A DNA stretch of 36,847 nt from Verrucomicrobiota bacterium (GCA_003218525.1 QHNU01000064.1:9548-46394); one strand, 5' to 3'; counted from the first letter of the stretch, positions 5,823 to 33,718 are shown. Notes: generated by a model not told the origin, from the letters alone. A program made the numbers and translations.

Positions 5823-5895
5823 TGGAGGTAAGGGGATTCGAACCCCTGACCTTCTCATTGCGAACGAGACGCTCTACCAACTGAGCTATACCCCC
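5823..5895 (-). tRNA. tRNA-Ala (anticodon CGC)
   Basis: The reverse complement is GGGGGTATAGCTCAGTTGGTAGAGCGTCTCGTTCGCAATGAGAAGGTCAGGGGTTCGAATCCCCTTACCTCCA. It folds by hand into a cloverleaf: 7-bp acceptor stem with the G3:U70 alanine identity pair, D arm GCTC/GAGC, anticodon loop TTCGCAA, T arm AGGGG-TTCGAAT-CCCCT. CCA is not encoded. Confidence 0.93.
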
Positions 5896-7704: not shown

Positions 7705-7954
7705 TTCGGCGAGCCTTTTGCGGAAAATTGCGACGCGACTAGCAGAAAGCGCGCTGCTGGCTAACAGGGTTTCGCAGCGACCGATAGACAACAGTGACGC
7801 AATCGCGCGCGCGCGTTTTGTACGCCGGCTTTGTCCACTCGCGCCCCATTTCTTAGCACATGTGAGACAACGTGAGATAACCGCGATTGTGTCCTCTTCC
7901 CTCTACGTGAACACGTGTGAGCGCGTGGGATAACGTAAGCAAATCCGCAGTGGA

Positions 7955-7995
7955 CTCATTGCGACCGAGACGCTCTACCAACTGAGCTATACCCC
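7955..7995 (-). pseudogene. Truncated tRNA-Ala fragment (5' half only)
   Basis: The reverse complement GGGGTATAGCTCAGTTGGTAGAGCGTCTCGGTCGCAATGAG matches positions ~2-42 of the intact tRNA-Ala at 5823-5895, including anticodon CGC. No T arm or 3' acceptor strand follows (TCCACTGCGGATTTGCTTACG). Confidence 0.75.
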
Positions 7996-8056
7996 AAAAA
8001 GTTTTTGGCCGCAGTTTAAGGTGAAGAATTCGAGTTTTATTTGAACCCAAGATCCA
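7955..8056. repeat. Direct repeat copy 2 (tRNA-Ala 5' half plus upstream block)
   Basis: See copy 1 at 5854-5960. Similarity extends ~60 bp beyond the tRNA 5' end, into what would be its promoter region. Confidence 0.8.
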
Positions 8057-8878: not shown

Positions 8879-9877
8879 TTATAGAATCGCGCCGCCGCAG
8901 CTCGAGCCCGCACCGGCCGTACAACCAAAACAGTGATTGCCAGTCATGATCTCGCGATTTTCAACCTTCTCGGGATCGACATCCCAAAGAAACAGCAGCC
9001 GGCCATTTTGCCATTGCATTCCAAGCTGCTGATTGAAGTCGCAATCGTAAACTTCACCTCGCCAGCCTACGCTGATGGTATTGTGGCACATCAAGCCTTC
9101 GCTCGTCGCTGGATTAAAATTTTCGATTAGCAACTGCATGTATTCCTCCAGCTTGTTGTTGTGTTGCAGATAAGAGGCAAAGCGCGCGATCGGCAGGTTG
9201 GCGATGGTGTAAAGTTTGTTGAAGACGATCCCGAAATGTTCACGCAGCTCCCGCTTGTAATCGGCTTCGAGCTCGGCTTGGGGCGGCGGCAAAAACGCAC
9301 CGACTGGATTGTAGACCAGGTGCAACGGTAAATCACTGCCGTATTCCAGCAAATTCAACCGATACAGCGCTTCGATGCTGGCATCGAAAACACCGTGACC
9401 GCGCTGCGCGTTCACGTTTTTCGCCGAATAACAGGGCATCGAGGCGATGATTTCGACTTCGCGCTCAGCCAGAAACTCGGCCAGTCCATCATAGCCGGGC
9501 TCGAGCAAAATCGTCAGATTGCACCGATCGATCACGTGACGCGACGGCGAGAGCGCCTTCACCCGGTCGATGAAGTAGCGAAAATCGGGAATCATTTCCG
9601 GCGCGCCACCGGTCAGATCGATCGTCGGAATATCCGTTAGCGCCAACCAATCCACGATGCGATCGATCGTGGAGCGCTCCATGATTTCTTTGCGCTTCGG
9701 CCCAGCATTCACATGGCAGTGCCCACAGGTGAGATTGCAAAGCTTCCCCACGTTCACCTGTAACACTTCAGTGCACGTGTGGCGCAGCGTCAGCTGATGC
9801 TGAGCGAGCTTCTGCGCGAAACGGTTCACGCCCGACAAGTGGCAAGCTCCACCTCGAATGTCATCGTTGGCGCTCAT
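8879..9877 (-). CDS. arsS: Radical SAM / Cys-rich protein of the ArsS (arsenosugar biosynthesis) family
   Basis: 332 aa. Radical-SAM cluster motif CNLTCGHC, then DLTGGAPE. The C-terminal Cys-rich region (CHNTISVGWRGEVYDCDFNQQL ... HCFGCTAGAGSSCGGAI) is characteristic of this family. Confidence 0.8.
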   Translation of the reverse strand: MSANDDIRGGACHLSGVNRFAQKLAQHQLTLRHTCTEVLQVNVGKLCNLTCGHCHVNAGPKRKEIMERSTIDRIVDWLALTDIPTIDLTGGAPEMIPDFRYFIDRVKALSPSRHVIDRCNLTILLEPGYDGLAEFLAEREVEIIASMPCYSAKNVNAQRGHGVFDASIEALYRLNLLEYGSDLPLHLVYNPVGAFLPPPQAELEADYKRELREHFGIVFNKLYTIANLPIARFASYLQHNNKLEEYMQLLIENFNPATSEGLMCHNTISVGWRGEVYDCDFNQQLGMQWQNGRLLFLWDVDPEKVENREIMTGNHCFGCTAGAGSSCGGAIL

Positions 9878-9965
9878 CTCGGTTGCTTTTGATCAGGTCA
9901 TGCATAATCGGTTTTGCAGCAAATTTCCCATTTTGCCTCGGTCGATTCTGTATGAAGCCGCAAAT

Positions 9966-10499
9966 ATGATATACAAACGCTTTCGAATTCTCGGGGCTGG
10001 TCTCGCTCTGATCGGCATCGGCCTTCCGCTGAGCACGCCTGGCGCGCCGTCAAAGACTTCCCCCTCGCCGAGTGTGTCGCCTCGGCCAGCGACCACGGTG
10101 AAAGCCAGCCCGACCGCGTCACCTGCAAGCTCGGCGGCGGCAAAACTGCATCCGATTACGTTTCACGGCATGATCGTGTCCACGGATGAGAAAGCGAAGA
10201 CATTCACCATCGCGGGCAAGGAGAAATCGGCTTTGTTGAAGATTACCGATAAAACAGTCGTCACGAAAGCGGGTCGGCCGGCGGCGATAAGAGACATAGT
10301 AGCGAACGAAGAAGTTCGAGGGACTTATTACAAAGAACCCAACGGATCGATGGAGGCGCGAACGGTGAGCTTGGGCCCGTTAACCGATGCCGAGATCGCG
10401 GCGCAGCAAGCGCATCGACCAAAACGCGCAGATAAGAAGACAGGCGATTCTCCAGGAATCTCGCCGGTCACGTCTCCTTCAGCTAGCCCAAGAATTTAG
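9966..10499 (+). CDS. Secreted Pro/Ser-rich hypothetical protein
   Basis: The ATG at 9966 gives a signal peptide (MIYKRFRILGAGLALIGIGLPLS). A PS-rich linker follows, then a small beta domain (ITFHGMIVSTDEKAKTFTIAGKEKSALLKITDKTVVTKAGRPAAIRDI). The upstream extension from 9858 is not signal-like. Confidence 0.55.
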   Translation: MIYKRFRILGAGLALIGIGLPLSTPGAPSKTSPSPSVSPRPATTVKASPTASPASSAAAKLHPITFHGMIVSTDEKAKTFTIAGKEKSALLKITDKTVVTKAGRPAAIRDIVANEEVRGTYYKEPNGSMEARTVSLGPLTDAEIAAQQAHRPKRADKKTGDSPGISPVTSPSASPRI

Positions 10500-11371: not shown

Positions 11372-11908
11372 ATGATTCTTCAGACAGCGCGTTTAATTCT
11401 GCGTCCCTTTGCTGAGAGCGACCTCGACCGCATCGGTGAGCTGATGGCTAATGAGGAATTCATGAAATTCTCGATGGGGCCAATGACACGACAACAAACG
11501 GCGACATTCCTTCAAAAAGTACTTCTATGGAGTCAGGCCGGATTACCCTCGCAATTTGCCGTGATCGAGCGGGAAACTGGCAGCCTCATCGGCTACTGCG
11601 GCTTTCTGCATCAGGAAGTTGACGGCGCCAAAGAAATCGAGATCGGCTACCGTTTGCATCCGGACTTCTGGAACCGCGGTCTCGCAACTGAAGCTGCGTG
11701 TGCTATCCGAGATCATGCTTTCCGTGACTTGCAATTGGAGCGCGTAATCTCGCTCATTCACCCGGACAATCACGCCTCGCGCCGGGTTATGGAAAAAAAC
11801 GGGATGACGATTGAAAAGCGCACCACCTTCCGGGGATTTCCAACCATTGTTTTCTCGATGAACCAAGAAACCTGGCAACGTCAGGTTCGCTCGGCCACCT
11901 GTCGCTGA
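11372..11908 (+). CDS. GNAT-family N-acetyltransferase (RimJ/RimL-like)
   Basis: 178 aa. TARLILRPFAESDLD..., acetyl-CoA-binding-type segment YRLHPDFWNRGLATEAACAIRDHAF, then HPDNHASRRVMEKNGM. The 3' end overlaps the convergent parA by 28 nt. Confidence 0.8.
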   Translation: MILQTARLILRPFAESDLDRIGELMANEEFMKFSMGPMTRQQTATFLQKVLLWSQAGLPSQFAVIERETGSLIGYCGFLHQEVDGAKEIEIGYRLHPDFWNRGLATEAACAIRDHAFRDLQLERVISLIHPDNHASRRVMEKNGMTIEKRTTFRGFPTIVFSMNQETWQRQVRSATCR

Positions 11909-12660
11909 ATGAATTCTTCCGCTAAGGCGCGATAGGCCCGCGCCCCCGTCCCAGCTGCGTCATATTCTAAAATCGTCTTGCCGAAACTGGGCGCCTCGCT
12001 CAATCGCACCGCGCGTGGAATTACTGTTCGATACACCTTTGAGGCGAAATGTTGTCGCACTTCAGCGACAACCTGTGCACTTATTTTGGTGCGGCTGTCG
12101 AACATCGTCATGACGATGCCGCCAATTTCGATTTGAGGGTTGGCGCCCGAATCGCGCACTTGCTCAACGATCCGCACAATTTTTACCAAGCCTTCGAGCG
12201 CAAAATATTCGCACTGAATCGGAGTGAGAATTTCATCCGCGGCAGCAAGCGCGTTGGTCATGAGAATGCCGAGCGATGGCGGACAATCGAGGAATACGAA
12301 GTCAAAAGCATTATCCTGCCGGAGCGGCCGCAGAGCAGTGGCCAGCCGCAGCAAATGATCTTCCATTCGCGCAATCTCCACTTCCGCGCCTGCTAGATCG
12401 ATATTAGCCGGGATGAGGAACAATCGCTCCAATCGCGTCGGAAGGATTTTATCGATGATCGATGACTCACCCAGGAGCGGATCGTAGAGACTCTGCCCTT
12501 CAAACTCCTGCATACCCGTGGAGCTGGTGGCGTTGCCTTGAGGATCGAGATCGACCAGTAAAAGACGCTGGCCCAGCTCAGCCAAAGCGGCGCCCAGATT
12601 CACTGCCGTTGTGGTTTTGCCGACGCCTCCCTTTTGATTGGCAACCGCGATGATTTTCAC
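11881..12660 (-). CDS. soj: ParA/Soj-type chromosome partitioning ATPase
   Basis: 259 aa. Deviant Walker A in MKIIAVANQKGGVGKTTTAVNLGAALA, then LLVDLDPQGNATS, FLDCPPSLGILMTNALAAAD, PIQCEYFALEGL and TVIPRAVRLSEAPSFGKTILEYD. This is close to my recollection of B. subtilis Soj. GTG start overlaps the upstream stop (GTGA). Confidence 0.9.
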   Translation of the reverse strand: MKIIAVANQKGGVGKTTTAVNLGAALAELGQRLLLVDLDPQGNATSSTGMQEFEGQSLYDPLLGESSIIDKILPTRLERLFLIPANIDLAGAEVEIARMEDHLLRLATALRPLRQDNAFDFVFLDCPPSLGILMTNALAAADEILTPIQCEYFALEGLVKIVRIVEQVRDSGANPQIEIGGIVMTMFDSRTKISAQVVAEVRQHFASKVYRTVIPRAVRLSEAPSFGKTILEYDAAGTGARAYRALAEEFIQRQVAERT

Positions 12661-15068
12661 GTTCGCGGAACGACCAGGGTGCGTAGTTCGAACGTGCGAC
12701 GGCCGTCACGTTCCTGCCAGCAAAGATCACTCGGGCCCGGTAACATTTCAGTCACCTCAAGCTCGCCCGCTTTCGTTAACCAACGATGAAAAATTTCCAG
12801 AAAGAGATAGCTCTCAAGATCGATAAACACAGGCTTGGTATCTTTGTCACGGCCTTCCGCCCCACTCCGCCGCAACGCCTGTTCCGTCGGACGGATGTAA
12901 ACGAAGCGCGGCCAGTCCTGTGCCGCGCGCAATTTCTCGACCGCTATGACAAGAGCGCGTGAAATACCGGAGAAATCTCCGGTTCCGAGCTCGCCAGCCG
13001 AAACCGTCCAGGCGCGCCGTTGCACGATCACTTTGCCGCAGCGCAGCCGCGGCATATGGGGTGACAACCCGAACTGAAAAGGATGAAATCCAAGCGGAAT
13101 CACCCAATTACGCGCAAAGGAACCAAGATATTCCTTCGTGCCGCGCTGATGTAGAGCGACATCACCACTTTTCTCATCGATAAAGACCTCTACCTCTGAT
13201 GGTGGAATGCATCTCCAATCCGGGTGCGCACGCTGCCGAGAAACAAAGACCGAACTTTGTGGTAAAGCGTCAAAGACGCGGACTGTGGTGTGCGCAGTGA
13301 AATCGGCAGCAAAGAATCCAAAATGGCAAACCGGCATACCATTAAGCATCGACTCAAGACCCCGCTTCAACGCCGCGGGGTCGGGACAACTCCAATACAT
13401 ACAGTGATGCAAAATGGCGACAGGTGGATGCAATTCGCCGATAATCCACTGATAATCGCCGCCATTAATCGCTTCGATCGAAGGCGCGGCAAGCTGCAGA
13501 TCGGCTGAAGGATACGTGAATTCATCAAATTTCGGATAGTCAAAATTGCGGCGTACGAGGTGACAGTCTTCGACACTTAGCTCGTATTCAGCTCTTGCCG
13601 CGTGGGGTCGCAGTTGTTCCCGAAAGGCTGCTTTAATTTCCTCAAAAGCGACGTGAGCCATCCCGACCAATCCCGGCCCGGTCAGCGGAACTTTGGCAGC
13701 CTCGCAAAAACGCAAAAAGGCAGGGAGTGCGATCGTACCGCCTTTCGACGACGCCTTTCGCAGTAACGCGCGAAGATTCGCTGTGACCCGTGCTGCAACA
13801 TAAGCATACGTGTCTCGCCAGAAATCGATCCACGGTTCTGCTTCCGTTGCAATTTCGTTGATGAGCTTTTGGTTAATTACGAAATGCGTCTTGCGGAAAC
13901 ATTCTTCGGCAATCGGATTGATTGCTGAATAAAGCGACCGTCGCCCAGCTATTGGGTTTGCTCCGACGGCCGCTAGGCGTTCGCTTGCCTCTCTTAAGAT
14001 TTGCTGACGCTGCTCCGTTTTCGAGGAAGCGGCAAATTTACGTGGCAACTCGGCGAGTGAACGGACCATTGGTAACCATCGATCGCGTACTGCACCCGGC
14101 CGCCAATTCGCGACCTCCCTGTGCAGAGCTTCAAAGGCGAAGGGATCGAGCGCGGGAATTTCCGCGGCCGCGACAAGGACTCGCCGGGCAACAAGATCGC
14201 GAATTATGTCAGTGGACTCAGCGAACGCGTACACTGGCGTGTTTCCATCGCAACGTACCAAAACCGCCGCTCCCGAGGCCCCGACTTGATGCGCTTCACC
14301 CGTGTCCGTAAAAATGAAGTTATCGTCGATCATCAGACCAATGGGATTTGGGCGCGGGCGCAACTCGGGAAAAACTTCTGGATCGGAGTTAATCGCCGCC
14401 GCAACTGCATTCGCCGTCCACCGCTCCAGAAATGCATCTCGCTCCGTTATTCCCGGTGCGGGATCGAATTGCACTCCGGCAATCGCCGGATCGATGCGAC
14501 CCCAGCTGGAGGGACCGAATTCGCTGAAGGTATCGTTTTTCGCCGCGACTCGTTGCAAATAAAGGAGCAAATGGCGTTCGCGTTCACGGGCACGTTTGTT
14601 TCGGGGAGAAAGATCAGTTTCGAGCGAATTCAATAGTTGCTGGGCACTGCCGGCACCAAAGATGAGATACGCTGGAAGAAATCGGCGCGAAGCAGCGAGC
14701 AGAGCGAGACGAGACTTCTCGAGGTCGCGCGCTAAGATCTCGTCTAATCGCTGGCCGGCATGCTCAGCCGCCATTAGAGCGCGCCCGTAATCAGATAGCT
14801 CCAATGGGGCATTTGATTCGATCTTCAGGGGCCGGTTGTTCCGCACGGCCCGCCGCAATTCGTGAAAAGTTTCCCGTGTGAACCCAGTGTCGCGACGGCC
14901 AAGAAGGTCTATCGCGGCCGTCTTCGTTCGTTCGAGATTGTCTTGGGTGAAGATTAGTTCCCGGGCAGCGGCAGCGGTGCTTGTGGTCGCGATTCCGTCA
15001 ACCGCGTCGAACGGCACGCCGGCGATTCTGATCAAAAAGAGTGGCGCGATCTCGTAGGTTGCCGACAT
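12657..15068 (-). CDS. Stand-alone LanB-like protein (lantibiotic dehydratase N-terminal / glutamylation-type domain only; split-LanB or PEARL-like)
   Basis: 803 aa. Segments line up with my recollection of NisB/SpaB. N-terminal APLFLIRIAGVPFDAV. aa ~166-190 LLLYLQRVAAKNDTFSEFGPSSWG (compare LanB ...Y..R...RSTPFGLFS). aa ~672-690 MPRLRCGKVIVQRRAWTV (compare NisB IPRLVFDEIVISPAKWKIW). WPRFVYIRP...KPVFIDLESYLFLEIF (compare ...GDNKLYLDL...). The protein ends right where the SpaB_C elimination domain would begin. Confidence 0.6.
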   Translation of the reverse strand: MSATYEIAPLFLIRIAGVPFDAVDGIATTSTAAAARELIFTQDNLERTKTAAIDLLGRRDTGFTRETFHELRRAVRNNRPLKIESNAPLELSDYGRALMAAEHAGQRLDEILARDLEKSRLALLAASRRFLPAYLIFGAGSAQQLLNSLETDLSPRNKRARERERHLLLYLQRVAAKNDTFSEFGPSSWGRIDPAIAGVQFDPAPGITERDAFLERWTANAVAAAINSDPEVFPELRPRPNPIGLMIDDNFIFTDTGEAHQVGASGAAVLVRCDGNTPVYAFAESTDIIRDLVARRVLVAAAEIPALDPFAFEALHREVANWRPGAVRDRWLPMVRSLAELPRKFAASSKTEQRQQILREASERLAAVGANPIAGRRSLYSAINPIAEECFRKTHFVINQKLINEIATEAEPWIDFWRDTYAYVAARVTANLRALLRKASSKGGTIALPAFLRFCEAAKVPLTGPGLVGMAHVAFEEIKAAFREQLRPHAARAEYELSVEDCHLVRRNFDYPKFDEFTYPSADLQLAAPSIEAINGGDYQWIIGELHPPVAILHHCMYWSCPDPAALKRGLESMLNGMPVCHFGFFAADFTAHTTVRVFDALPQSSVFVSRQRAHPDWRCIPPSEVEVFIDEKSGDVALHQRGTKEYLGSFARNWVIPLGFHPFQFGLSPHMPRLRCGKVIVQRRAWTVSAGELGTGDFSGISRALVIAVEKLRAAQDWPRFVYIRPTEQALRRSGAEGRDKDTKPVFIDLESYLFLEIFHRWLTKAGELEVTEMLPGPSDLCWQERDGRRTFELRTLVVPRT

Positions 15069-15116: not shown

Positions 15117-16271
15117 TCAGTCAGCCACGAGCGGAAGGCGTAGTGTGAAAGCCGTACCAACCTGGGGTGTGCTTTCCACTTTGATCGAACCGTGGTGATC
15201 CTCGATTACCTTTTTCGTGATGTACAATCCGAGGCCAGTCCCGTTCTTGCCCTGTTTCGTCGTAAAATATGGCTCGAAAATCTTCGACATTTGTTCCGCC
15301 GGGATACCGTAACCGGTATCTTCCACGCGAATATCGGCGTAAAAATCTTTTGCTACGCAACTGACCGCAACCGAGCCTTTCTTTTCCGCCGAGGCCTGGA
15401 TGGCGTTCATAATCACATTTTGAATCGCGCGCGTAAGTTGGGTCGGCTCACCCAGCACGGTGCACTCCTCCTCACAAATATTGCAATTCAGTTCCACACC
15501 GCTTTCCACGGCCATCCCACCACTGCTTTTGACCACTTCACGCACGATTTGCGAAATCGAAAGAGGCGTCGGCCTCGTTCCGCGGGTACTGCCATAGCTT
15601 TGCCACATCGTCAGGAGGTCCCGGCAGAGGCGGACGTTTTGCTCGATGATGTTCAATTCCCTCGGAGAACTCGCGCCTGCGCCGTTGCTACTTCCGTAAC
15701 CTGATTGCTCGAGTTTCTTGGCCAAAATTTGCACGTATCCCCATACAATCGTGAGCGGATTGCTGAGGTCGTGGACGAATTCGGCCGAGGCCTGCCCTAA
15801 CGACGCGAGATGCTCCTTCTGGGCAAGCTCGCCCATTAATCGTTGATTGAGCTCTTTAATCTCTTGCGCTGCCTCTACGCTTTTGCGGTGAGCGACCGTG
15901 CGTTCGACATTGCGACTGATTACCTCCCGCATTTTCGCGGCGTCAAACGGCTTATTAATATAATCGTTTGCGCCCAGCCGGAGCGCCTCCTGCGCGGTCT
16001 CGAGCGCACCGAAACCGGTAAGCATAATTACGGAAAGGTAAGGATCGATCTCCCGGATCTTGCGCAGGCCATCAATGCCATTGGTGCCCGGCATACGGAT
16101 GTCCATGACGATTGCATCGGGTGCGTTTTCTTGCAGCAACTGCAGCCCCAACTCCACATTATCAGCCGTGTGAACTTGATAATTGGGTTTTAGCAGCATG
16201 CGCAGACTTTCGCGCGGTCCCATTTCATCATCGATAATGAGAACCTTTGGCTGCTCGGCGGTACGGATCAT
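15117..16271 (-). CDS. Cytoplasmic hybrid protein: N-terminal receiver (REC) domain plus HisKA plus HATPase_c histidine kinase
   Basis: 384 aa. REC: VLIIDDEMG...AIVMDIRMPGTNG...VIMLTGFG...NDYINKPFD. Coiled linker. H-box FVHDLSNPLTIV. N/G boxes NVIMNAIQA, EDTGYGIPAEQMSKIFEPYFTTK, GTGLGLYITKKVIEDHHGSI. No TM segment. Confidence 0.85.
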   Translation of the reverse strand: MIRTAEQPKVLIIDDEMGPRESLRMLLKPNYQVHTADNVELGLQLLQENAPDAIVMDIRMPGTNGIDGLRKIREIDPYLSVIMLTGFGALETAQEALRLGANDYINKPFDAAKMREVISRNVERTVAHRKSVEAAQEIKELNQRLMGELAQKEHLASLGQASAEFVHDLSNPLTIVWGYVQILAKKLEQSGYGSSNGAGASSPRELNIIEQNVRLCRDLLTMWQSYGSTRGTRPTPLSISQIVREVVKSSGGMAVESGVELNCNICEEECTVLGEPTQLTRAIQNVIMNAIQASAEKKGSVAVSCVAKDFYADIRVEDTGYGIPAEQMSKIFEPYFTTKQGKNGTGLGLYITKKVIEDHHGSIKVESTPQVGTAFTLRLPLVAD

Positions 16272-16591: not shown

Positions 16592-17833
16592 ATGATTAAA
16601 CGCAACCGCGTCGTCGTAACTGGAATGGGTATCCTGGCGCCTAATGGCATCGGCTTGGAAGCCTTTTGGAAGTCCCTTCTCACCGCCCGCAGCGGTATCG
16701 GCCCAATCACACTTTTCGATGCTTCGAACTTGAAAAGCCGGATTGCGGGCGAAGTGAAGAATTTCGATCCGAGCCAGTACATTGAAGCAGAACTAAAACC
16801 GAAGCGCATGGCACGGCATACGCAGTTTGCTTATGCCGCAACCATGATGGCCTTAAAAGATGCTGGTTTGGATGTCAATAACCTCGATTTGCCAAGTCCT
16901 ACGCCCGTCGTTATCGGCGTCAGTACTAGCGCCATGGATATCATTGAGCGCGGTTTCAGCGACTTCGATCGTCGCGGGCCAGATGGCGTATCCCCCATAA
17001 CACTTAGCGCCTTGTCACCTCAGGCCGCCGCGAACGTGATTGCTGACCGGATAGGGGCTTGCGCACGTGCGGCGACTGTCTCCTCCGCGTGTCCTTCTGG
17101 TCTCGATGCCGTTGCCGTCGCGGCGAATATGATTTTGTCCGGAGAAGCAGAGCTGGCAATAGCGGGAGGGACGGATGCTCCGATTACGAAGTATAGTTTA
17201 GCTGCCTTTATTGTCACAGGACTTAGTTCCTGTCGCAACGGCGATCCGGAAAAAGCAAGTCGGCCGTTCGATCTGGAACGCGATTCTGGCGTAATTTCGG
17301 AGGGCGCCGGAATATTCGTGCTCGAAAATCTTGAGCGCGCACAGGCCCGCGGCGCACATGTCTATCTTGAAATCGGCGGTTATGCGAGACAACGGGACCA
17401 CTCTCCTGAGGATCCAGGATCGGGCCTTGTCGACTCAATGAAGCTCGCATTGGCAAATGCGGCACGAATGACAGATGACATCGATTACATTTCTGCTTAC
17501 GGGCCGGGACATCCAGCCTTGGATTCAGCTGAAGTCCGCTACATCAAAGAGGTTTTTGGAGAACGAGCTTATTCAATTCCCATTAGCTCGATCAAAGGAG
17601 TGACTGGAAACCCACTGTCAGCCGGCGGACCGCTGCAGATCGCGACATGCGCACTGAGCTTCCGTGACCAGACGATCCCGCCAACAGCTAATTACGAAGT
17701 CCAAGATCCGCTGTGCGATCTCGATTTCGTGCCGGATCGCCCCCGAAAGGCAAAAGTGGATTGTGCTCTAGTGAATGTTCGTGGGCTCGGAGGAAGCGCA
17801 AGCACGATGCTGGTGAATCGCATCCCATGTTGA
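16592..17833 (+). CDS. FabF/FabB-family beta-ketoacyl synthase-like protein with a non-canonical active site (Cys-Tyr-Asn instead of Cys-His-His)
   Basis: 413 aa. RVVVTGMGILAPNG and SSACPSGLDAVAVAANMI (Cys retained). ISAYGPGHPALD aligns with FabF NAHGTSTPAGD (His to Tyr). SSIKGVTGNPLSAGG aligns with FabF SSTKSMTGHLLGAAG (Lys kept, His to Asn). C-terminal GLGGSAS. Confidence 0.85.
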   Translation: MIKRNRVVVTGMGILAPNGIGLEAFWKSLLTARSGIGPITLFDASNLKSRIAGEVKNFDPSQYIEAELKPKRMARHTQFAYAATMMALKDAGLDVNNLDLPSPTPVVIGVSTSAMDIIERGFSDFDRRGPDGVSPITLSALSPQAAANVIADRIGACARAATVSSACPSGLDAVAVAANMILSGEAELAIAGGTDAPITKYSLAAFIVTGLSSCRNGDPEKASRPFDLERDSGVISEGAGIFVLENLERAQARGAHVYLEIGGYARQRDHSPEDPGSGLVDSMKLALANAARMTDDIDYISAYGPGHPALDSAEVRYIKEVFGERAYSIPISSIKGVTGNPLSAGGPLQIATCALSFRDQTIPPTANYEVQDPLCDLDFVPDRPRKAKVDCALVNVRGLGGSASTMLVNRIPC

Positions 17834-20361
17834 TAAACAGTGCCGCGGCCCCGACCCTTGCGGCGATAGTCATTCAGCTGGTTTTGGGCTTGGCCGTATT
17901 TCAAGCCAATCCGCGACGCAAATCGAACCAATGTTTCCTGCTGCTCTCGCTCTTCATCGTGATGTGGCTGGGGAGCTTGTATTCGGTTCTCTCAGCAAGG
18001 AGCACTGAAGCGGCGGCGCTTTATATTCGTCAAGCGTCAGCAGCGGCGGCGTTAATTCTCACCGCTGCTAACCTTCTCCGGTTATCGATTCAGAAACAGG
18101 ATCGGAGCTGGGGAGGGATTTTGCGCGACTCATGGCTGTGGCTCATTGCGGCGCTTGCTATCGCGACATTCTGCCAAACAAAGTTCTTTTTACAGGGGGC
18201 GCGCTTTTCACAACCGGCGGGAGCGCTGATTGCGCTACCGGTACCCGTGTATGGGAATGCTTCGGTTGTATATGTCTTCTACTTCGTAATCGCCGGACTG
18301 GCGGTGATCATCAATTATGCGCGTGATGCAAGACAAGCGACGGGTCTTAGACGCGCCGAATTCGCCTTCATTCTTACTGGCGCCGTGGCAACTCTCGGCA
18401 CCGTGCTCGTTGCTTTCAGCCTAGGCTTCTTCCTTGACCGGTCGCGTCTAGTCTGGTTCGCGCCATTTCGGATTCTTCTTTTCAGCCTGATCGTCGCCTA
18501 TGGCATAGCCACACAGAAGATCATGGACGTGGGATTTTTCCTTCGTCGAGCCATGTCCTACGCGCTGCTCACTGCTTACGTCCTAGCGCTCTACGGTTTG
18601 GTTTGGTGGCTGGTTTTCGCCGTCTTCGGTCCACTGGTGCCGGCCAGCGCTAGATCTGTCGCCCATATCACCGCCGCAGTTATGGTGGCTTTTGCCATGG
18701 CGTCAGCTCGCGGCGTCTCGCAAAAGCTGGTCGATCGCCTGTTCGTAGGCACGCGCGGTTTAGATTTTCGAGCCACCGTACAGAAGGCAACTGCTATTTT
18801 GGAATCAGTTACGACTTTGCCCGATCTACTTCGCCGATTCGCCTCTACTATCGCCGAAGCAGTGGGGACGGACAATGTTGCAATCTTTTTAGAGGATCGA
18901 AAAGGTTTTGTGCGGCGCTATTCGAGTTTCAATGGCTCTGCGTTGGATCTCCGACTCGAAATTTCCGCAGACGGCCCGTTGATCACTTGGCTCAAGAATC
19001 ATCGCGAACCACTTATCCTAGACGAGCTTCACCGTAGGCGAGCGACGGCTGCCACGACCGCGATTCGAAAAAGGCTGGAAGAACTCGGAGTCGCTGCTGC
19101 TTTGGGAATTTTTTCTCGTGAGCATCTAGTTGGGGTCATGCTGCTAGGTCCACGCTTATCCGGCCGCATCTACGGCAGCGTCGAACAAGACGCGCTCCAG
19201 ATCTTGTGCGGACAACTGGCTGTGGCGATCGAGAACGCAGAGTTATTTACCGAAGTTCAGAATGCCAAGATTTATAACGAGATTCTACTTCAGAACCTGA
19301 CTACGGGCGTAATCGCCGCGGATGCCGACGGCGGTATATCGGTATTCAATCGTGAAGCGGAGAAGATCACCGGCTTGGACGCCAAGGCAACGTTGGAAAA
19401 GACGATTCGCGATTTGCCCGGTTCTCTATGCGCTATACTGGAAACGACCCTGCAATCAGGTGAACGACAGGAAGACCGCGAGATCTATCTGCGCTCTAGT
19501 TCAGGCGTAGTATATGCCCGGGCAAGTAGCTCGACGTTCCATAGTCAAGATCGTCAATTACTCGGCGCCCTTATCGTTATTACCGACATAACCCATTTGA
19601 AACGTCTCGAGCTTCAAATTCGACGGAGCGATCGATTAGCCAGTCTTGGTACTTTGTCGGCCGGAATGGCCCATGAGATCAAGAACCCGCTCGTTTCGAT
19701 AAAGACTTTCGCTCAATTGCTTCCCGAGCGTTATAGCGAATCCGACTTCCGCGAGACTTTCTCCAACCTCATTGTCCACGAAATCAACCGTATCGACTCG
19801 CTCGTGAACCAGCTTCTTCGTTTTGCACGTCCGGCCAAGCCTTTCCTCCGCCCGATGCGCGTTCATGAAATCCTCGACAAAACCCTGCTGCTCATCCAGC
19901 ACCGCTTGTATCAAAAAGAAATCAAGCTGACGAAGTCGTGGGAGGCGGACATCGATACGACTCGCGCTGATGCCGACCAATTGGAGCAGGTTTTTTTGAA
20001 CTTCTTTCTGAATGCGATGGATGCAATGAGACAAGGTGGCGAGTTAACCGTGACAACAAAAATCCGCTCCGGTGACGTCTTAGTTTCGCAGCTCTCGGCC
20101 GAGGACGAGGAAGCAACAGAAGCATTGTGCATCTCCATTCGGGACACCGGTGATGGAATTCGAGCAGAAGATATTCCGCATGTCTTCGATCCATTTTTTA
20201 CGACGAAAGATTACGGAACAGGTCTGGGTCTATCTGTCGTTCATGGCATTATTGAAGAGCACTGCGGCCAGATCGAAGTCGAAAGCGAACTGAGTAAAGG
20301 CACTGTCTTTCATATTCTTTTGCCGCTGGTTCGTTTTAATCAGGAGGTAGCGGTAGCGTGA
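17827..20361 (+). CDS. Sensor histidine kinase: multi-pass (about 7 TM) N-terminal membrane domain, then GAF, PAS, HisKA and HATPase_c
   Basis: ATG 17827 overlaps the ketosynthase stop (ATGTTGA). The N-terminal ~300 aa are serial hydrophobic helices. GAF-like ...LGVAAALGIFSREHLVGVMLLGPR. PAS LLQNLTTGVIAADADGGISVFNREAEKITG. H-box SAGMAHEIKNPLVSIKTFAQLLPERY. G boxes RDTGDGI...DPFFTTK, GTGLGLSVVHGI. Confidence 0.85.
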   Translation: MLINSAAAPTLAAIVIQLVLGLAVFQANPRRKSNQCFLLLSLFIVMWLGSLYSVLSARSTEAAALYIRQASAAAALILTAANLLRLSIQKQDRSWGGILRDSWLWLIAALAIATFCQTKFFLQGARFSQPAGALIALPVPVYGNASVVYVFYFVIAGLAVIINYARDARQATGLRRAEFAFILTGAVATLGTVLVAFSLGFFLDRSRLVWFAPFRILLFSLIVAYGIATQKIMDVGFFLRRAMSYALLTAYVLALYGLVWWLVFAVFGPLVPASARSVAHITAAVMVAFAMASARGVSQKLVDRLFVGTRGLDFRATVQKATAILESVTTLPDLLRRFASTIAEAVGTDNVAIFLEDRKGFVRRYSSFNGSALDLRLEISADGPLITWLKNHREPLILDELHRRRATAATTAIRKRLEELGVAAALGIFSREHLVGVMLLGPRLSGRIYGSVEQDALQILCGQLAVAIENAELFTEVQNAKIYNEILLQNLTTGVIAADADGGISVFNREAEKITGLDAKATLEKTIRDLPGSLCAILETTLQSGERQEDREIYLRSSSGVVYARASSSTFHSQDRQLLGALIVITDITHLKRLELQIRRSDRLASLGTLSAGMAHEIKNPLVSIKTFAQLLPERYSESDFRETFSNLIVHEINRIDSLVNQLLRFARPAKPFLRPMRVHEILDKTLLLIQHRLYQKEIKLTKSWEADIDTTRADADQLEQVFLNFFLNAMDAMRQGGELTVTTKIRSGDVLVSQLSAEDEEATEALCISIRDTGDGIRAEDIPHVFDPFFTTKDYGTGLGLSVVHGIIEEHCGQIEVESELSKGTVFHILLPLVRFNQEVAVA

Positions 20362-22364
20362 CGCTTTCGCCTGTTTGCATCCTTTATTCTCAAGACGGCG
20401 ATCTGCTGCGGCGAGTCAAAGCGTTCCTGCGCACGATGGCGCAAGTCCGACACGTGGCCGAACCGGATCGTCTCGAGGCGGTTCTGCAACAGGTGGCGCC
20501 TGCCGTGGTCATCATGGATCTGCGGGCAAAAGAATGTCGCGATTTGCTGGAGAAGTTGCAGCAGGATTGGTCCGATTCACTTCTCATTGCGCTTGGCGCC
20601 CCACGTTCTGAACCGCTGCGCGATGCTGAGCAATCTGGGATTTACGCGGCCGAAGATTTGCAATTGGAACGGCGCCGCTTTCAGGCACTAATCGGGCGGG
20701 CGTTTGACTATTTGAACTTAATACAGGCTAATCGAGAACTGCGCGACACTTCACGACAGGTCCCGCTGCCGGATTGGGAGCGCCATTCGGAGCGTGCGCC
20801 GGAACGAGTCTATTCCCCATCGCTTCCGATGCTGCGTTTCGCGCGGGTGTTTCGTCGTTTCGAGGACGTCGAGACGCTCCTCAATAATATTGTGGAACAA
20901 GTGGCAGACGCGGCGGGGGTGACACGGGTGGGAATTTTCTCTCGAATTCGCCACGGCGACAGCTATCGGCTTCGCGCCGGACTTCGGTCTTTGCCCGAAA
21001 CGGACCAACTTGAGTACACCGAACGCGATCCGCTGGTCCGTTGGTTCGAGACCCACGCTCATCTGATTTCGCGCGGCAATCTCGCCCAGCTCGGAGGTCA
21101 AAATCAGCGCATACTCTTGCGCCGCGCTCTCGATAGCTCCGGAGCCGAAGTTATTGCGCCCCTTTACGCGGGAGGCCGCATCATCGGCTGGCTTTTCTTT
21201 GGCCATCGTGTGACCGGACAACCGTTTGGCTACGCCGATTTGGAAGCCTTGACCGTGCTCGCGGAACAGGTCTCTACCGTCCTGGAAAACGCTCTTCTTT
21301 ACGAGGAGATCTCGGTCCAAAAAACGCTCGCTGAAACGCTTCTGAAGTCGATCCCGCCGGGAATTGTTGCGATTGACGAAGGAGGGATCGTGCGATGGTT
21401 TAATTCGCCGGCTGAAAACATCCTCGGCGTCAAAACGGAAGAGGCGCTTAATCGGCCCGTTGAAATTGCGGGGAGCAAGCTCGCGATGATGTTGCGCAAC
21501 ACGCTGGACGCGACAAACAACCTGCCGCCGCAGCAATGGATTGATCCTAATACGCGGCGTTCTCTCTCTGTCGAGACACGCCGACTCGCAGATCGTCGTA
21601 CTTCGCTGGGCGCCGTTGCTGTCATTCATGACCTGACAGCGGAGGAAAATCTCCGGCAGAAGCAGGACCTTGTTGATCGCGCGGCGTTCTGGACTGATTT
21701 GGCCGCGAGCATGTCACACGAAATTCGCAATCCTCTCGTCGCCATTAAAACCTTCGCTCAGCTTCTACCTGAACGATTTGATGACGCTGATTTTCGAAAG
21801 AATTTCACCGATATTGTCGTCCAGGAAATCGATCGACTGGACAAAATCATTACTCAGATCAACTCCTTCGCGCATCCGGCCGAGCTGAATATGAAACCGC
21901 TCGATATCCGGGCTCCAGTGAAGCGCGGGCTCGAATTGGCCCGGACGAAGTTTGGAACGAATGGCGGTGTTCCGGTCGAGACGCAGCTTTCGTCGGACCT
22001 GCCAACCGTTGTGGGAGACGAAGATGCGCTGGCTGAAGCATTCGCTCATTTGGTGGCGAACGCAGCTGAAGCGGTCCGGGATCAAAAGAAACCCCGCATC
22101 GTTCTTTCAGCCAAACCACTTCGCCACGGCGACCGCGGAGGCGGCGTGCTGGTGACAATCCAAGATAACGGGCGCGGCATTGCTCCGGAGATGAAGGAGA
22201 AAGTTTTTTCTCCCTTTTGCACGACAAAGGCGCGCGGAATGGGGCTAGGCTTGCCGATTGTGAAGCGAACCGTGTTCGATCATAACGGGCGCGTCGATAT
22301 CGATACGAGCACGCGCGGGACATCGGTCACCATTGCCTTGCCAGCGAGGGCGAAGTCCGAATAG
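20358..22364 (+). CDS. Soluble sensor histidine kinase: degenerate receiver-like N-terminus, then GAF, PAS, HisKA and HATPase_c
   Basis: GTG 20358 overlaps the upstream stop (GTGA) and follows AGGAGG by 10 nt. The N-terminal ~120 aa are REC-like but lack the acidic pair, T/S and K (see findings). GAF ...GRIIGWLFFGHRVTGQPF. PAS IPPGIVAIDEGGIVRWFNSPAENILG. H-box AASMSHEIRNPLVAIKTFAQLLPERF. G boxes QDNGRGI...SPFCTTK, GMGLGLPIVKR. Confidence 0.8.
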   Translation: MTLSPVCILYSQDGDLLRRVKAFLRTMAQVRHVAEPDRLEAVLQQVAPAVVIMDLRAKECRDLLEKLQQDWSDSLLIALGAPRSEPLRDAEQSGIYAAEDLQLERRRFQALIGRAFDYLNLIQANRELRDTSRQVPLPDWERHSERAPERVYSPSLPMLRFARVFRRFEDVETLLNNIVEQVADAAGVTRVGIFSRIRHGDSYRLRAGLRSLPETDQLEYTERDPLVRWFETHAHLISRGNLAQLGGQNQRILLRRALDSSGAEVIAPLYAGGRIIGWLFFGHRVTGQPFGYADLEALTVLAEQVSTVLENALLYEEISVQKTLAETLLKSIPPGIVAIDEGGIVRWFNSPAENILGVKTEEALNRPVEIAGSKLAMMLRNTLDATNNLPPQQWIDPNTRRSLSVETRRLADRRTSLGAVAVIHDLTAEENLRQKQDLVDRAAFWTDLAASMSHEIRNPLVAIKTFAQLLPERFDDADFRKNFTDIVVQEIDRLDKIITQINSFAHPAELNMKPLDIRAPVKRGLELARTKFGTNGGVPVETQLSSDLPTVVGDEDALAEAFAHLVANAAEAVRDQKKPRIVLSAKPLRHGDRGGGVLVTIQDNGRGIAPEMKEKVFSPFCTTKARGMGLGLPIVKRTVFDHNGRVDIDTSTRGTSVTIALPARAKSE

Positions 22365-31720: not shown

Positions 31721-31723
31721 GGC

Positions 31724-33412: not shown

Positions 33413-33472
33413 TTTCGGCCCTCCGAGCCAAATCTTCGGATCGAGAGCACGGCGACCCCGAAAGCGTTCGGG

Positions 33473-33508
33473 GTGGCTATATTGTAGCCGCCTCGCCCTG
33501 CCGAGGCG
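33473..33508 (+). repeat. Composite hairpin repeat, copy A (GTGGCTA..TGTAGCC plus CGCCTCG-N6-CGAGGCG)
   Basis: gtggctatattgtagccgcctcgccctgccgaggcg has the same architecture and near-identical sequence as 33629-33669. Confidence 0.75.
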
Positions 33509-33513
33509 TTTTT
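33489..33513 (+). terminator. Rho-independent terminator-like hairpin after gspE paralog 2
   Basis: CGCCTCG - ccctgc - CGAGGCG followed directly by TTTTT. It is preceded by a second perfect 8-bp hairpin, ACCCCGAA-agcg-TTCGGGGT, at 33455-33474. Confidence 0.5.
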
Positions 33514-33628
33514 CGCATCGTCGATGCGGGATCGCTTTCATGCGGCGGAGCGCGATCGCTACAATCTTTCGGATTGGGTATTCAGCGATTTGCAGCAGCA
33601 AAATAGCCTCACACGGCGACTGAGCGCC

Positions 33629-33669
33629 GTGGCTACAACCACCTGTAGCCGCCTCGCTTTGTCGAGGCG
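33629..33669 (+). repeat. Composite hairpin repeat, copy B
   Basis: gtggctacaaccacctgtagccgcctcgctttgtcgaggcg. It contains GGCTACA-N6-TGTAGCC (7-bp stem), immediately followed by CGCCTCG-N6-CGAGGCG. No T-run follows. Confidence 0.75.
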
Positions 33670-33718
33670 CACCCTTAGCTCGACACCGAGGTTCGAATTT
33701 TGCTATAATTCCTACCCA

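What the first reader, a model, noticed from the sequence alone, without database searches (positions are those of the whole stretch)
12657..15068. Orphan LanB-like enzyme: glutamylation/PEARL-type domain with no elimination domain, cyclase, transporter or precursor nearby
The 803-aa protein shows several LanB N-domain landmarks, listed in the features. It terminates where NisB-type enzymes begin their SpaB_C elimination domain. Known contexts for such stand-alone domains are split LanBs (thiopeptide or lanthipeptide clusters with a separate eliminase, LanC or YcaO) and PEARLs (tRNA-dependent amino-acid addition to a scaffold peptide, with tailoring enzymes).

None of those partners is visible within 12 kb on one side and 21 kb on the other. 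The neighbours are signalling proteins and a Soj ATPase instead. This suggests a tRNA-dependent aminoacylation or glutamylation activity used outside a classical RiPP cluster, possibly on a protein substrate. That is inference.
Basis: partly seen in the sequence, partly recalled or inferred. Interest (0 to 1): 0.7.

Follow-up and report, generated by a model that had tools for sequence, protein, structure and literature searches.

The report
Orphan PEARL-like ligase in signalling operon
An enzyme of a type known only from antibiotic-style biosynthetic gene clusters (it joins an amino acid carried by tRNA onto a carboxyl group) is kept across a whole order of soil bacteria in a fixed operon between a signalling kinase and a ParA ATPase. 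No usual partner genes lie nearby, so it may have a cellular role that nobody has described.

Summary
ORF 12657..15068 (-) encodes an 803-aa protein whose only Pfam family is Lant_dehydr_N (E=1.8e-17). A confident AlphaFold2 model (pLDDT 95) matches only LanB glutamylation domains, best TbtB (TM 0.67). No elimination domain, LanC, YcaO, protease or exporter was found in the 36.8-kb window.

It carries the signature of PEARLs (ATP- and aminoacyl-tRNA-dependent peptide ligases), not of glutamylating LanBs. D523, G-E545-L-H547 and Y170-x-Q-R173-x3-K177 match motifs read from the characterised PEARL BhaB7. The E794-x-R796 assignment to TglB E801/R803 rests on position only.

The gene forms a monophyletic, single-copy clade (49-100% identity, 163 distinct loci). 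All named records are Chthoniobacterales or Verrucomicrobiota. ParA lies directly downstream in 141/141 loci, with a 4-nt overlap in 75 of 139 junctions. A REC-histidine kinase lies upstream in 117/119.

Relatives at 44% identity or less sit in biosynthetic-type contexts instead: tandem LanB-like genes, or oxidase/decarboxylase/peptidase neighbours.

Best reading: a domesticated PEARL-type ligase acting on an unidentified carboxylate. Substrate and physiological role are unknown. No paper describing it was found in the library searched.

The parts
12657..15068 (-). 803-aa PEARL-like protein with the LanB glutamylation-domain fold and no elimination domain
   Evidence: ORF. PF04738 E=1.8e-17. 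AF2 pLDDT 95. Foldseek TbtB TM 0.67, E=4.6e-25.
14529..14597 (-). Helix 158-180 with Y170-L-Q172-R173-x3-K177-N-D-T, the predicted binding helix for the tRNA 3'-CCA end
   Evidence: R173 and K177 are invariant, and Y170 and Q172 at least 90% conserved, across 102 sequences down to about 22% identity. BhaB7 has Y205, Q207, R208 and K212 at the same spacing. The role of Y205/R208 is given in PMC11962472 section 11.
14163..14342 (-). Three strands then helices, residues about 243-302: possible RRE-like winged-helix (peptide-binding) module, dispensable in a subclade
   Evidence: Secondary structure. Weak profile match to PqqD 5sxy, E=0.066; no Pfam PqqD hit. Deleted in L164/L167/L168, which keep the synteny.
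13428..13502 (-). A-D523-L ... G-E545-L-H547: ATP-grasp-like Mg/ATP site typical of PEARLs
   Evidence: D523 and E545 are invariant and H547 at least 90% conserved. BhaB7 reads P557-D558-L559 and G574-E575-I576-H577. TglB D542/E564 have the same 22-residue spacing. The Asp is reported as Tyr in split LanBs (PMC11117183).
12897..13019 (-). Q683-R684 ... Y724: adenine-stacking Arg and aromatic pair
   Evidence: The alignment to TbtB puts R684 on chain residue R746 and Y724 on F786. These are paper residues R743 and F783, assuming chain numbering runs 3 ahead of the paper's. The assignment follows PMC11117183. R684 is invariant.
12681..12689 (-). E794-L-R796 in the last strand, assigned to TglB E801-x-R803 (phosphoryl-transfer / carboxylate-binding Arg)
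   Evidence: Both residues are invariant in 102 sequences. The assignment rests on position and literature; no PEARL sequence was aligned over this stretch.
11881..12660 (-). ParA/Soj-type Walker ATPase (259 aa), with its start overlapping the PEARL-like stop by 4 nt (GTGA)
   Evidence: Pfam AAA_31 1.7e-57, CbiA, ParA. Downstream of the PEARL-like gene in 141/141 loci. 75 of 139 junctions have the 4-nt overlap.
15117..16271 (-). Hybrid receiver + histidine-kinase protein (REC, H-box FVHDLSNPL, HATPase_c), first gene of the putative operon, ending 48 nt before the PEARL-like start
   Evidence: Pfam, NCBIfam. Upstream on the same strand in 117/119 loci.
16592..17833 (+). Divergently transcribed FabF-like ketosynthase lacking both catalytic His residues (Cys kept, His to Tyr, His to Asn); part of the conserved six-gene block
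   Evidence: Pfam. Below both fabF NCBIfam cut-offs. Alignment to FabF 1j3n. Conserved position in relatives.
17713..22364 (+). Two GAF-PAS-HisKA-HATPase_c sensor kinases (HK1 ending at 20361, real start probably near 17833; HK2 at 20358..22364) following the KS-like gene; part of the conserved block
   Evidence: Pfam. Conserved order in relatives.

Best explanation
The gene encodes a PEARL-type enzyme: a stand-alone LanB-like, ATP-grasp-derived ligase.

By analogy with TglB and BhaB7, it should work in three steps. It phosphorylates a carboxylate with ATP. It lets the amino group of an aminoacyl-tRNA attack the acyl-phosphate. It then releases the tRNA, which adds one amino acid to the substrate.

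Unlike every characterised PEARL, it is not part of a biosynthetic cluster. It is a single-copy, vertically inherited gene in Chthoniobacterales (Verrucomicrobiota). It is fixed as the middle gene of a REC-histidine-kinase / PEARL-like / ParA operon, opposite a KS-like + two-sensor-kinase operon.

The most likely history is capture of one enzyme from a multi-PEARL natural-product cluster, followed by domestication for a cellular role. That role would be linked to signalling or ParA-dependent organisation. The substrate would be a carboxylate, protein or peptide C-terminus or metabolite, that is not encoded as an adjacent scaffold peptide.

Shown here: fold, catalytic signature, clade structure, synteny, absence of cluster partners. 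Inferred: the chemistry (by homology), co-transcription (from the gene overlaps), the domestication scenario, and any link to signalling or ParA. Unknown: substrate and amino acid.
For: Fold and domain.
- PF04738 is the only Pfam family.
- The AF2 model has pLDDT 95.
- Foldseek hits only LanB glutamylation domains.

PEARL signature.
- Fourteen residues, among them R173, K177, D523, E545, R684, E794 and R796, are invariant in 102 sequences down to about 22% identity; H547, Y170 and Q172 are at least 90% conserved.
- BhaB7 residues read from its published AF3 model give P-D558-L, G-E575-I-H577 and Y205-x-Q207-R208-x3-K212. These are the same motifs at the same spacing.
- The literature assigns these residues to ATP/Mg and tRNA CCA binding. 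It states that the Asp and Arg are PEARL-specific, being Tyr and Leu in split LanBs.

Clade and synteny.
- 163 distinct loci at 49-100% identity, one copy each.
- ParA downstream in 141/141 and REC-HK upstream in 117/119.
- 75 of 139 junctions have a 4-nt stop/start overlap.
- The NJ tree places all 43 sampled family members in one clade with no outsiders.
- Named records are Chthoniobacterales or Verrucomicrobiota MAGs.

Outgroups at 27-44% identity lie in biosynthetic-type contexts.
- Four tandem LanB-like genes (L086); tandem pairs (L170, an Anaeromyxobacter MAG; L173).
- BBE oxidase + PLP decarboxylase + M28 peptidase (L089).
- Gamma-glutamyltranspeptidase (L172).
- PCP + adenylating enzyme + ABC exporter (L087).

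No cluster partners were found in the window or in annotated relatives. GC content of the gene matches its surroundings.
Against: - No biochemical data exist for this family.
- The E794/R796 assignment rests on position and literature, not on an alignment with a PEARL. The BhaB7 file was cut before residue 813, and no TglB sequence was available.
- I did not see TbtB's residues at the two discriminating positions; that contrast comes from PMC11117183 only.
- Conserved gene order within one order can reflect shared ancestry rather than function. Operons also carry unrelated genes.
- No substrate candidate was found. ParA and REC-HK C-termini vary. No indel in ParA or REC-HK tracks the loss of the RRE-like module.
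- Genomes were examined only within about 10 kb either side, so unlinked partners are not excluded.
- It is unknown how many Chthoniobacterales genomes lack the gene.
Confidence: 0.55

Rival explanations
1. It is an ordinary natural-product PEARL. Its scaffold peptide, tailoring enzymes, protease and exporter are encoded elsewhere in the genome, and its position next to REC-HK and ParA is a historical accident.
For: It has the same catalytic signature as biosynthetic PEARLs. Its sister lineages are in biosynthetic contexts. Only about 10 kb either side was inspected. An RRE-like module is present in most members.
Against: The gene is single-copy and sits in the same operon slot in 141/141 and 117/119 loci, with a stop/start overlap to ParA. 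The flanks beyond the six-gene block vary. Bacterial pathways of this kind are normally clustered. A subclade has lost the RRE-like module yet keeps the synteny.
Confidence: 0.2
2. It ligates an amino acid from aminoacyl-tRNA onto a small-molecule carboxylate, as SnaE does in threopeptin biosynthesis. This would make a signal or metabolite, possibly together with the neighbouring KS-like protein, that the adjacent kinases sense.
For: PEARL-like enzymes without any carrier peptide act on non-ribosomal carboxylates (PMC10769383). The RRE-like module is dispensable in a subclade. No scaffold ORF is conserved nearby. A non-canonical Cys-Tyr-Asn KS-like gene and three kinases are always adjacent.
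Against: The block contains no ACP, adenylating enzyme, exporter or other metabolic gene. The KS-like protein lacks both decarboxylation histidines. Nothing links the kinases to a ligand.
Confidence: 0.15
3. It is a split-LanB glutamylation subunit of the TbtB/GodF type. It would dehydrate Ser/Thr in a peptide together with an elimination protein encoded elsewhere.
For: The closest solved structures are TbtB and GodF. Size and end-to-end colinearity match.
Against: It has Asp523 and Arg796 where split LanBs are reported to have Tyr and Leu. It also has the E-x-H Mg site of PEARLs. No SpaB_C, YcaO, LanC or Ser/Thr/Cys-rich precursor is present in any inspected locus. No solved PEARL structure matched in either PDB search, and a 2026 review says none has been reported, so 'closest structure' is uninformative.
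Confidence: 0.05
4. It is a catalytically dead or purely structural or regulatory remnant, for example a ParA or kinase partner that merely keeps the fold.
For: It evolves faster than its neighbours: about 55% identity against 75-83% for ParA and 70-76% for REC-HK. One MAG shows an in-frame fusion to ParA.
Against: All residues mapped to ATP, Mg and tRNA binding are invariant or nearly invariant across the clade and far beyond it. The C-terminal catalytic half is almost identical among members.
Confidence: 0.05

Closest known systems
PEARLs (peptide aminoacyl-tRNA ligases, LanBC): TglB (Pseudomonas syringae), BhaB7 = BhaBC-Trp (Bacillus halodurans), AmmB enzymes
   Same: About 800 aa with only the LanB glutamylation-like domain. 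It shares the Y-x-Q-R-x3-K tRNA CCA helix, the Asp (D523 = BhaB7 D558 / TglB D542), the G-E-x-H Mg site, the adenine-binding Arg and aromatic pair, and the C-terminal E-x-R. [quoted passage not shown]
   Different: No scaffold peptide, tailoring enzyme, protease or exporter is nearby. It is single-copy and conserved across an order in a REC-kinase/ParA operon. One subclade has lost the RRE-like module. Activity is untested.
SnaE (PEARL-like enzyme of the Stackebrandtia nassauensis NRPS-PKS cluster, threopeptin)
   Same: A LanB-like enzyme with no carrier peptide nearby, proposed to aminoacylate a non-ribosomal carboxylate using ATP and aminoacyl-tRNA.
   Different: SnaE sits inside an NRPS-PKS cluster with exporters. 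Here there is no NRPS, PKS, ACP or exporter. No sequence comparison with SnaE was possible.
Split LanB glutamylation subunits TbtB (6ec7/6ec8) and GodF (9jhq)
   Same: These are the best structural matches (TM 0.64-0.68) and the only PDB sequence or profile matches. Size is similar, and the N-terminal Arg, CCA helix and adenine-binding Arg are shared.
   Different: Split LanBs do not use ATP. They are reported to have Tyr and Leu at the positions of D523 and R796. They work with a SpaB_C eliminase and a precursor peptide, and neither is present here.
Full-length class I lanthipeptide dehydratases (NisB, MibB, MadB)
   Same: The N-terminal glutamylation-domain fold (TMq 0.52-0.61).
   Different: They carry a C-terminal SpaB_C elimination domain and are encoded with LanC, LanA and LanT. 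All of these are absent here.
ATP-grasp C-terminal protein or peptide ligases (RimK, tubulin-tyrosine ligase, glutathione synthetase). This comparison is analogy from my own knowledge plus PMC11117183.
   Same: The proposed ancestry of PEARLs, and the chemistry of activating a C-terminal carboxylate as an acyl-phosphate. They are a precedent for housekeeping C-terminal tailing of proteins.
   Different: Those enzymes use free amino acids, not aminoacyl-tRNA. No significant structural hit was found: D-Ala-D-Ala ligase scored E=2.0 over 96 columns.

Membership tests
PEARL (LanBC) | LanB glutamylation-like domain alone, about 800 aa, no SpaB_C elimination domain | tested here: met
   PF04738 only. 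803 aa. Foldseek covers only the glutamylation domain of LanBs.
PEARL (LanBC) | ATP/Mg site: Asp (TglB D542 / BhaB7 D558) and Glu-x-His (TglB E564 / BhaB7 E575, H577) | tested here: met
   D523 and E545 invariant, H547 at least 90% conserved. Local motifs A-D-L and G-E-L-H equal BhaB7 P-D-L and G-E-I-H as read from its model file.
PEARL (LanBC) | C-terminal Glu-x-Arg (TglB E801/R803, BhaB7 E813/R815); the Arg is Leu in split LanBs | tested here: inconclusive
   E794-L-R796 is invariant in 102 sequences, 8-10 residues from the C-terminus. The correspondence is by position only, because no PEARL sequence was available for this stretch.
PEARL (LanBC) | tRNA 3'-CCA-binding helix (BhaB7 Y205, R208) | tested here: met
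   Y170-L-Q172-R173-x3-K177 against BhaB7 Y205-x-Q207-R208-x3-K212.
PEARL (LanBC) | Scaffold or carrier peptide gene next to the enzyme | tested here: not met
   No small ORF outside known genes is conserved beyond 14 of 164 loci near the operon. Intergenic gaps are 48 nt and -4 nt in the window.
PEARL (LanBC) | Cluster with tailoring enzymes, a releasing protease and often several PEARLs | tested here: not met
   Window neighbours are kinases, ParA, DNA glycosylases, GNAT and housekeeping genes. The same holds in L001, L003, L005 and L088. One copy per locus.
PEARL (LanBC) | ATP- and aminoacyl-tRNA-dependent addition of an amino acid to a carboxylate | not testable with these tools
   Needs enzymology.
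Split LanB glutamylation subunit (LanBB: TbtB, GodF) | Same fold | tested here: met
   TM 0.67 and 0.64, E down to 4.6e-25. Profile E=4.9e-33.
Split LanB glutamylation subunit (LanBB: TbtB, GodF) | No ATP site: Tyr and Leu at the PEARL Asp and Arg positions | tested here: not met
   The protein has D523 and R796. The Tyr/Leu statement comes from PMC11117183; I did not see the TbtB residues myself.
Split LanB glutamylation subunit (LanBB: TbtB, GodF) | Separate SpaB_C eliminase plus precursor peptide and YcaO or LanC nearby | tested here: not met
   None in the window or in annotated relatives.
Class I LanB (NisB type) | Fused C-terminal SpaB_C elimination domain | tested here: not met
   No PF14028 hit. 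The protein ends 8-10 residues after the last conserved glutamylation-domain motif.
ParABS chromosome or plasmid partition (for the downstream gene) | ParA Walker ATPase with an adjacent parB | tested here: inconclusive
   ParA-type ATPase confirmed (Pfam) but below every NCBIfam equivalog cut-off. No ParB domain in the window or in annotated relatives' flanks. The rest of the genome was not searched.

The most novel reading that the evidence does not exclude
[quoted passage not shown] It would be a C-terminal counterpart of the aminoacyl-tRNA protein transferases (Aat, Bpt), and the first PEARL outside secondary metabolism.
Probability: 0.2. Interest if true: 0.85.

Novelty: new variant of a known kind. 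Interest (0 to 1): 0.62.

Why it matters
Every PEARL and LanB enzyme described in the papers read here belongs to a natural-product pathway. A member that is fixed in an operon with signalling proteins and a ParA ATPase across an abundant order of soil bacteria would be different.

It would extend tRNA-dependent, non-ribosomal amide-bond formation into cell physiology. It would also point to an unknown post-translational or metabolite modification.

It has practical uses too. It gives genome miners a concrete false-positive class: these genes are annotated 'lantibiotic dehydratase' but probably mark no lanthipeptide cluster. It also gives enzymologists a PEARL whose substrate recognition may not need a leader peptide.

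Tried and rejected
1. First AlphaFold2 run on 21 close homologues gave pLDDT 59 and was not used.
2. NCBIfam gave no hit for the protein.
3. Looked for a conserved small ORF (scaffold peptide) across 164 loci. Nothing near the operon was conserved beyond close relatives. The best 'hit' was a tRNA-Ala fragment 4 kb away.
4. Tested whether the 130-200-nt gaps between the LanB-like gene and ParA hide a peptide gene. They hold palindromic MITE/REP-like insertions.
5. Compared C-termini of all block proteins as possible PEARL substrates. ParA, REC-HK, KS and HK2 tails vary. HK1 ends in a conserved ...E-V-A-A-A, but this may instead reflect a Shine-Dalgarno-like GAGG and the start overlap of the next gene; I inferred this without inspecting the nucleotide sequence. 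It was not adopted.
6. Looked for indels in ParA or REC-HK that track the loss of the RRE-like module. None found.
7. Pfam PqqD/RRE scan of residues 230-310 was negative, so the RRE-like label rests on a weak PDB profile hit only.
8. The metagenome scan seeded with outgroup sequences returned only the Chthoniobacterales family, so it added synteny counts but no new outgroup contexts.
9. Could not obtain TglB, or BhaB7 beyond about residue 590. PMC6927032 and PMC6686864 are not held and the BhaB7 model file is truncated.
10. Promoter and terminator scans were at chance level.
11. Literature searches for this family in Verrucomicrobia or Chthoniobacterales, or for a ParA/kinase link, found nothing.


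Full report

Yes. An ATG-to-TGA ORF of 803 aa occupies exactly 12657..15068 on the minus strand.
- Its only Pfam family is PF04738 Lant_dehydr_N (E=1.8e-17, 63.2 bits, cut-off 28). PF14028 SpaB_C does not hit, and NCBIfam has no model for it.
- By sequence, the only solved relative is the split-LanB glutamylation subunit TbtB (6ec7). It aligns colinearly from residue 6 to 786. A profile of 45 relatives raises this to E=4.9e-33 and adds GodF (9jhq).
- A first AlphaFold2 model from 21 close homologues was poor, with pLDDT 59. A second, from 102 sequences spanning 22-80% identity, is confident, with pLDDT 95.0 and pTM 0.92.
- Foldseek against the PDB returns only LanB glutamylation domains: TbtB TM 0.67, GodF 0.64, then MibB, NisB and MadB. 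After these there is a gap to E>1.
- The full-length dehydratases are 948-1036 residues. This protein stops at the end of the glutamylation-like domain.

**2. Surroundings in the window**

On the same strand, a 384-aa receiver + histidine-kinase hybrid (15117..16271) ends 48 nt upstream. A 259-aa ParA/Soj-type ATPase (11881..12660) starts with a GTG that overlaps the stop codon by 4 nt.

Divergently transcribed are a FabF-like ketosynthase and two GAF-PAS sensor kinases.

The rest of the 36.8 kb is housekeeping or unrelated:
- DNA glycosylases, a GNAT and an ArsS-type radical SAM protein;
- fructose-bisphosphate aldolase, LpxD, GlgC and GlmS;
- a type II/IV secretion ATPase cluster.

No SpaB_C, LanC, YcaO, peptidase or ABC exporter was found among the window ORFs scanned. 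GC content of the gene (0.54-0.55) equals its surroundings.

**3. What kind of LanB-like enzyme is it?**

Across 102 sequences down to about 22% identity, fourteen columns are invariant: R173, K177, G185, P186, D523, E545, R674, R684, K745, D750, E774, P777, E794 and R796. H547, Y170, Q172 and Q683 are at least 90% conserved.

The literature on PEARLs gives the following.
- TglB D542, E564, a conserved His, E801 and R803 (BhaB7 D558, E575, E813, R815) are assigned to an ATP-grasp-like ATP/Mg site.
- An Arg/Phe pair (TbtB R743/F783) stacks on adenine in both classes (PMC11117183 and PMC11962472).
- BhaB7 Y205 and R208, on a helix, bind the tRNA 3'-CCA end.

I read individual residues from the BhaB7 AlphaFold3 model deposited with PMC11962472. 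It has P557-D558-L559, L573-G574-E575-I576-H577, and Y205, Q207, R208 and K212. The window protein has A522-D523-L524, I543-G544-E545-L546-H547, and Y170-L-Q172-R173-x3-K177. These are the same motifs with the same internal spacing.
- D523 to E545 is 22 residues, exactly as TglB D542 to E564.
- The TbtB alignment puts R684 on TbtB R743 and Y724 on F783, assuming chain numbering runs 3 ahead of the paper's numbering.
- E794-L-R796 lies 8-10 residues from the C-terminus. I assign it to TglB E801-x-R803 by position only, because the BhaB7 file is cut before residue 813 and no TglB sequence was at hand.

The enzyme therefore carries the PEARL signature: ATP-dependent activation of a carboxylate, then attack by an aminoacyl-tRNA. 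It does not carry the signature reported for glutamylating LanBs.

**4. Family, distribution and synteny**

The 5.8-billion-protein search gave 644 hits. The best 120 are all about 800 aa at 54-100% identity, with only PF04738, and are named Chthoniobacterales or Verrucomicrobiota where named.

One genome per GTDB species gave 228 species with a relative. The best 80 are all labelled Chthoniobacterales, Verrucomicrobia/Verrucomicrobiota/Verrucomicrobiae or 'Spartobacteria' MAGs.

The metagenome scan gave 80 more loci of the same family. These include contigs identical to the window (WNGI01004490.1, WNGO01003724.1).

Counts over 163 distinct loci:
- ParA is directly downstream in 141 of 141 loci with enough sequence.
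- REC-HK is upstream on the same strand in 117 of 119.
- Of 139 distinct LanB-like/ParA junctions, 75 have the 4-nt xTGA overlap, 2 a 1-nt overlap, and 13 a gap of 0-30 nt.
- A further 46 have 31-300 nt, where the examples I read hold palindromic insertions. Two have larger insertions and one is an in-frame fusion.
- The KS-like + HK1 + HK2 operon is also constant, whereas sequence beyond ParA and beyond HK2 varies.
- There is one copy per locus.

**5. Where the clade comes from**

HMMER against 1.84 billion representatives gives 1931 relatives at E<1e-3. Full-length relatives form a continuum at 52%, 44-34%, about 29% and 22-28% identity, all 730-860 aa.

In an NJ tree, the 43 sampled family members form one clade with no outsiders. 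They nest among the 34-44% group, and the sister is P0126/P0128.

The representative at 52% identity (P0121) has the same synteny. Every outgroup looked up has a biosynthetic-type context:
- P0123: four tandem LanB-like genes.
- P0124 (Anaeromyxobacter sp. MAG) and P0128: tandem LanB-like genes.
- P0125: BBE/FAD oxidase, PLP decarboxylase and M28 peptidase.
- P0126: gamma-glutamyltranspeptidase.
- P0164: carrier protein, adenylating enzyme, a second LanB-like gene and an ABC exporter.

Multi-PEARL clusters and PEARLs in NRPS contexts are both documented (bioRxiv 10.1101/338681; PMC10769383). The simplest history is that one enzyme of such a cluster was captured and fixed in the REC-HK/ParA operon in an ancestor of this clade. 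This is inference.

**6. Mechanism and what remains open**

By homology, the enzyme should bind ATP/Mg at D523/E545/H547/E794/R796. It should phosphorylate a carboxylate, bind the CCA end of an aminoacyl-tRNA on the Y170/R173/K177 helix, form an amide bond, and release the tRNA.

The substrate is not identified.
- No small ORF near the operon is conserved across the family.
- The C-terminal tails of ParA, REC-HK, KS-like and HK2 are variable. The conserved ...EVAAA end of HK1 may instead reflect a Shine-Dalgarno-like GAGG and the overlapping start of HK2; I inferred this without inspecting the nucleotide sequence.
- Residues about 243-302 form a three-strand-plus-helices module with a weak profile match to the RRE protein PqqD (E=0.066). 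A subclade (L164, L167, L168 and others) has deleted it, together with part of the long helical insert, while keeping the synteny.
- No compensating change is seen in REC-HK or ParA.

Leader-peptide binding may therefore not be essential. This keeps both a protein C-terminus and a small-molecule carboxylate, as for SnaE, on the table.

The stop/start overlap with ParA suggests translational coupling and hence co-expression. A single in-frame fusion to ParA (L048) could equally be a 1-nt assembly error.

**7. Comparison with what is known, and novelty**

The protein works like a PEARL and meets the sequence and structure criteria that could be tested. It fails the contextual criteria: scaffold peptide, tailoring enzymes, protease and multiplicity. 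It fails the residue criterion and the context criteria for split LanBs, and the domain criterion for NisB-type enzymes.

Searches of the held literature found no description of this family or of any PEARL linked to ParA or two-component genes. I rate it a new variant of a known kind: a known enzyme type in a conserved, non-biosynthetic genomic setting, with an unknown substrate.

**8. Verdict**

The enzyme is PEARL-type rather than glutamylating, and the orphan status is real and evolutionarily stable.
- The protein-substrate idea is untested.
- Interest is 0.62. It would surprise RiPP enzymologists and is directly testable, but it currently rests on comparative genomics alone.

Noticed in passing
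L029:12385-12565, also L031, L044, L059, L005, L011, L015 (between the LanB-like gene and parA): About 130-200-nt insertions with long terminal inverted repeats (for example GGGGAGCGCACGCGCC..TCGCGTGC / GCACGCGA..GGCGCGTGCGCTCCCC). They sit exactly at the stop/start overlap, and the parA start (ATGAAGATCAT) is duplicated on both sides. They look like MITE/REP-like elements. A second sequence type (GTGACATGTGAC... / TTCGAATTTCGA...) occurs in other loci. 46 of 139 junctions have a 31-300-nt gap of this size.
   Followed up: partly
L048:12341-12490: In one long-read MAG (MFD00822.bin.1.61) the LanB-like ORF reads in frame into parA (...FELRTLIVTSH-MKIVAIANQKGG...). This makes a fusion ORF. It is either a Rosetta-stone fusion or a 1-nt assembly error.
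   Followed up: partly
window 16592-17833 (+): The FabF-like ketosynthase keeps the active-site Cys (SSACPSG). Aligned to FabF 1j3n, it has Tyr and Asn in place of the two catalytic histidines (AYGPGH, TGNPL), and it scores below both fabF NCBIfam cut-offs. It is always followed by two GAF-PAS histidine kinases, which is an unusual association.
   Followed up: partly
L164, L167, L168, L161, L169 (and P0097 for the first deletion only): A subclade of the family is about 680 aa. It lacks residues about 50-103 (part of the long helical insert) and about 243-302 (the RRE-like module), but keeps all catalytic motifs and the REC-HK/ParA synteny.
   Followed up: partly
window 5823-5895 (-) and about 7954-8053: A tRNA-Ala(CGC) gene plus a partial second copy of the same tRNA sequence lie about 2 kb apart. 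They bracket a lower-GC stretch (about 0.53) that holds four ORFs with no Pfam match. This looks like the remnant of an element integrated at the tRNA gene.
   Followed up: partly
window about 20330-20361 (C-terminus of HK1) and relatives: HK1 ends in a strongly conserved ...LPLVRFxxEVAAA in most loci. This could be a degron-like tail, but it may instead reflect a Shine-Dalgarno-like GAGG and the GTGA overlap with the next kinase gene. The nucleotide sequence was not inspected.
   Followed up: no
L066:12394-14389 and L062:12403-13745: Two loci have 1.3-2 kb inserted between the LanB-like gene and parA. In L066 a truncated parA start (MKVVAIANQKGGVGK...) remains at the original overlapping position and a complete parA follows the insertion.
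   Followed up: no
window 8879-9877 (-) and 9858-10499 (+): There is an ArsS-type arsenosugar-biosynthesis radical SAM protein (TIGR04167, 428 bits against a cut-off of 300). Beside it is a 213-aa ORF with no family match that is conserved in some relatives.
   Followed up: no
window 30017-35553 (+): Two tandem T2SSE/MshEN secretion ATPases are followed by a T2SSF platform protein and a pseudopilin-like protein. This is a type II secretion or type IV pilus cluster unrelated to the finding.
   Followed up: no
L134 (WNGI01004490.1) and L136 (WNGO01003724.1): In these metagenome contigs the seven block proteins compared match the window's at 98-100% identity. They probably come from the same population.
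   Followed up: no
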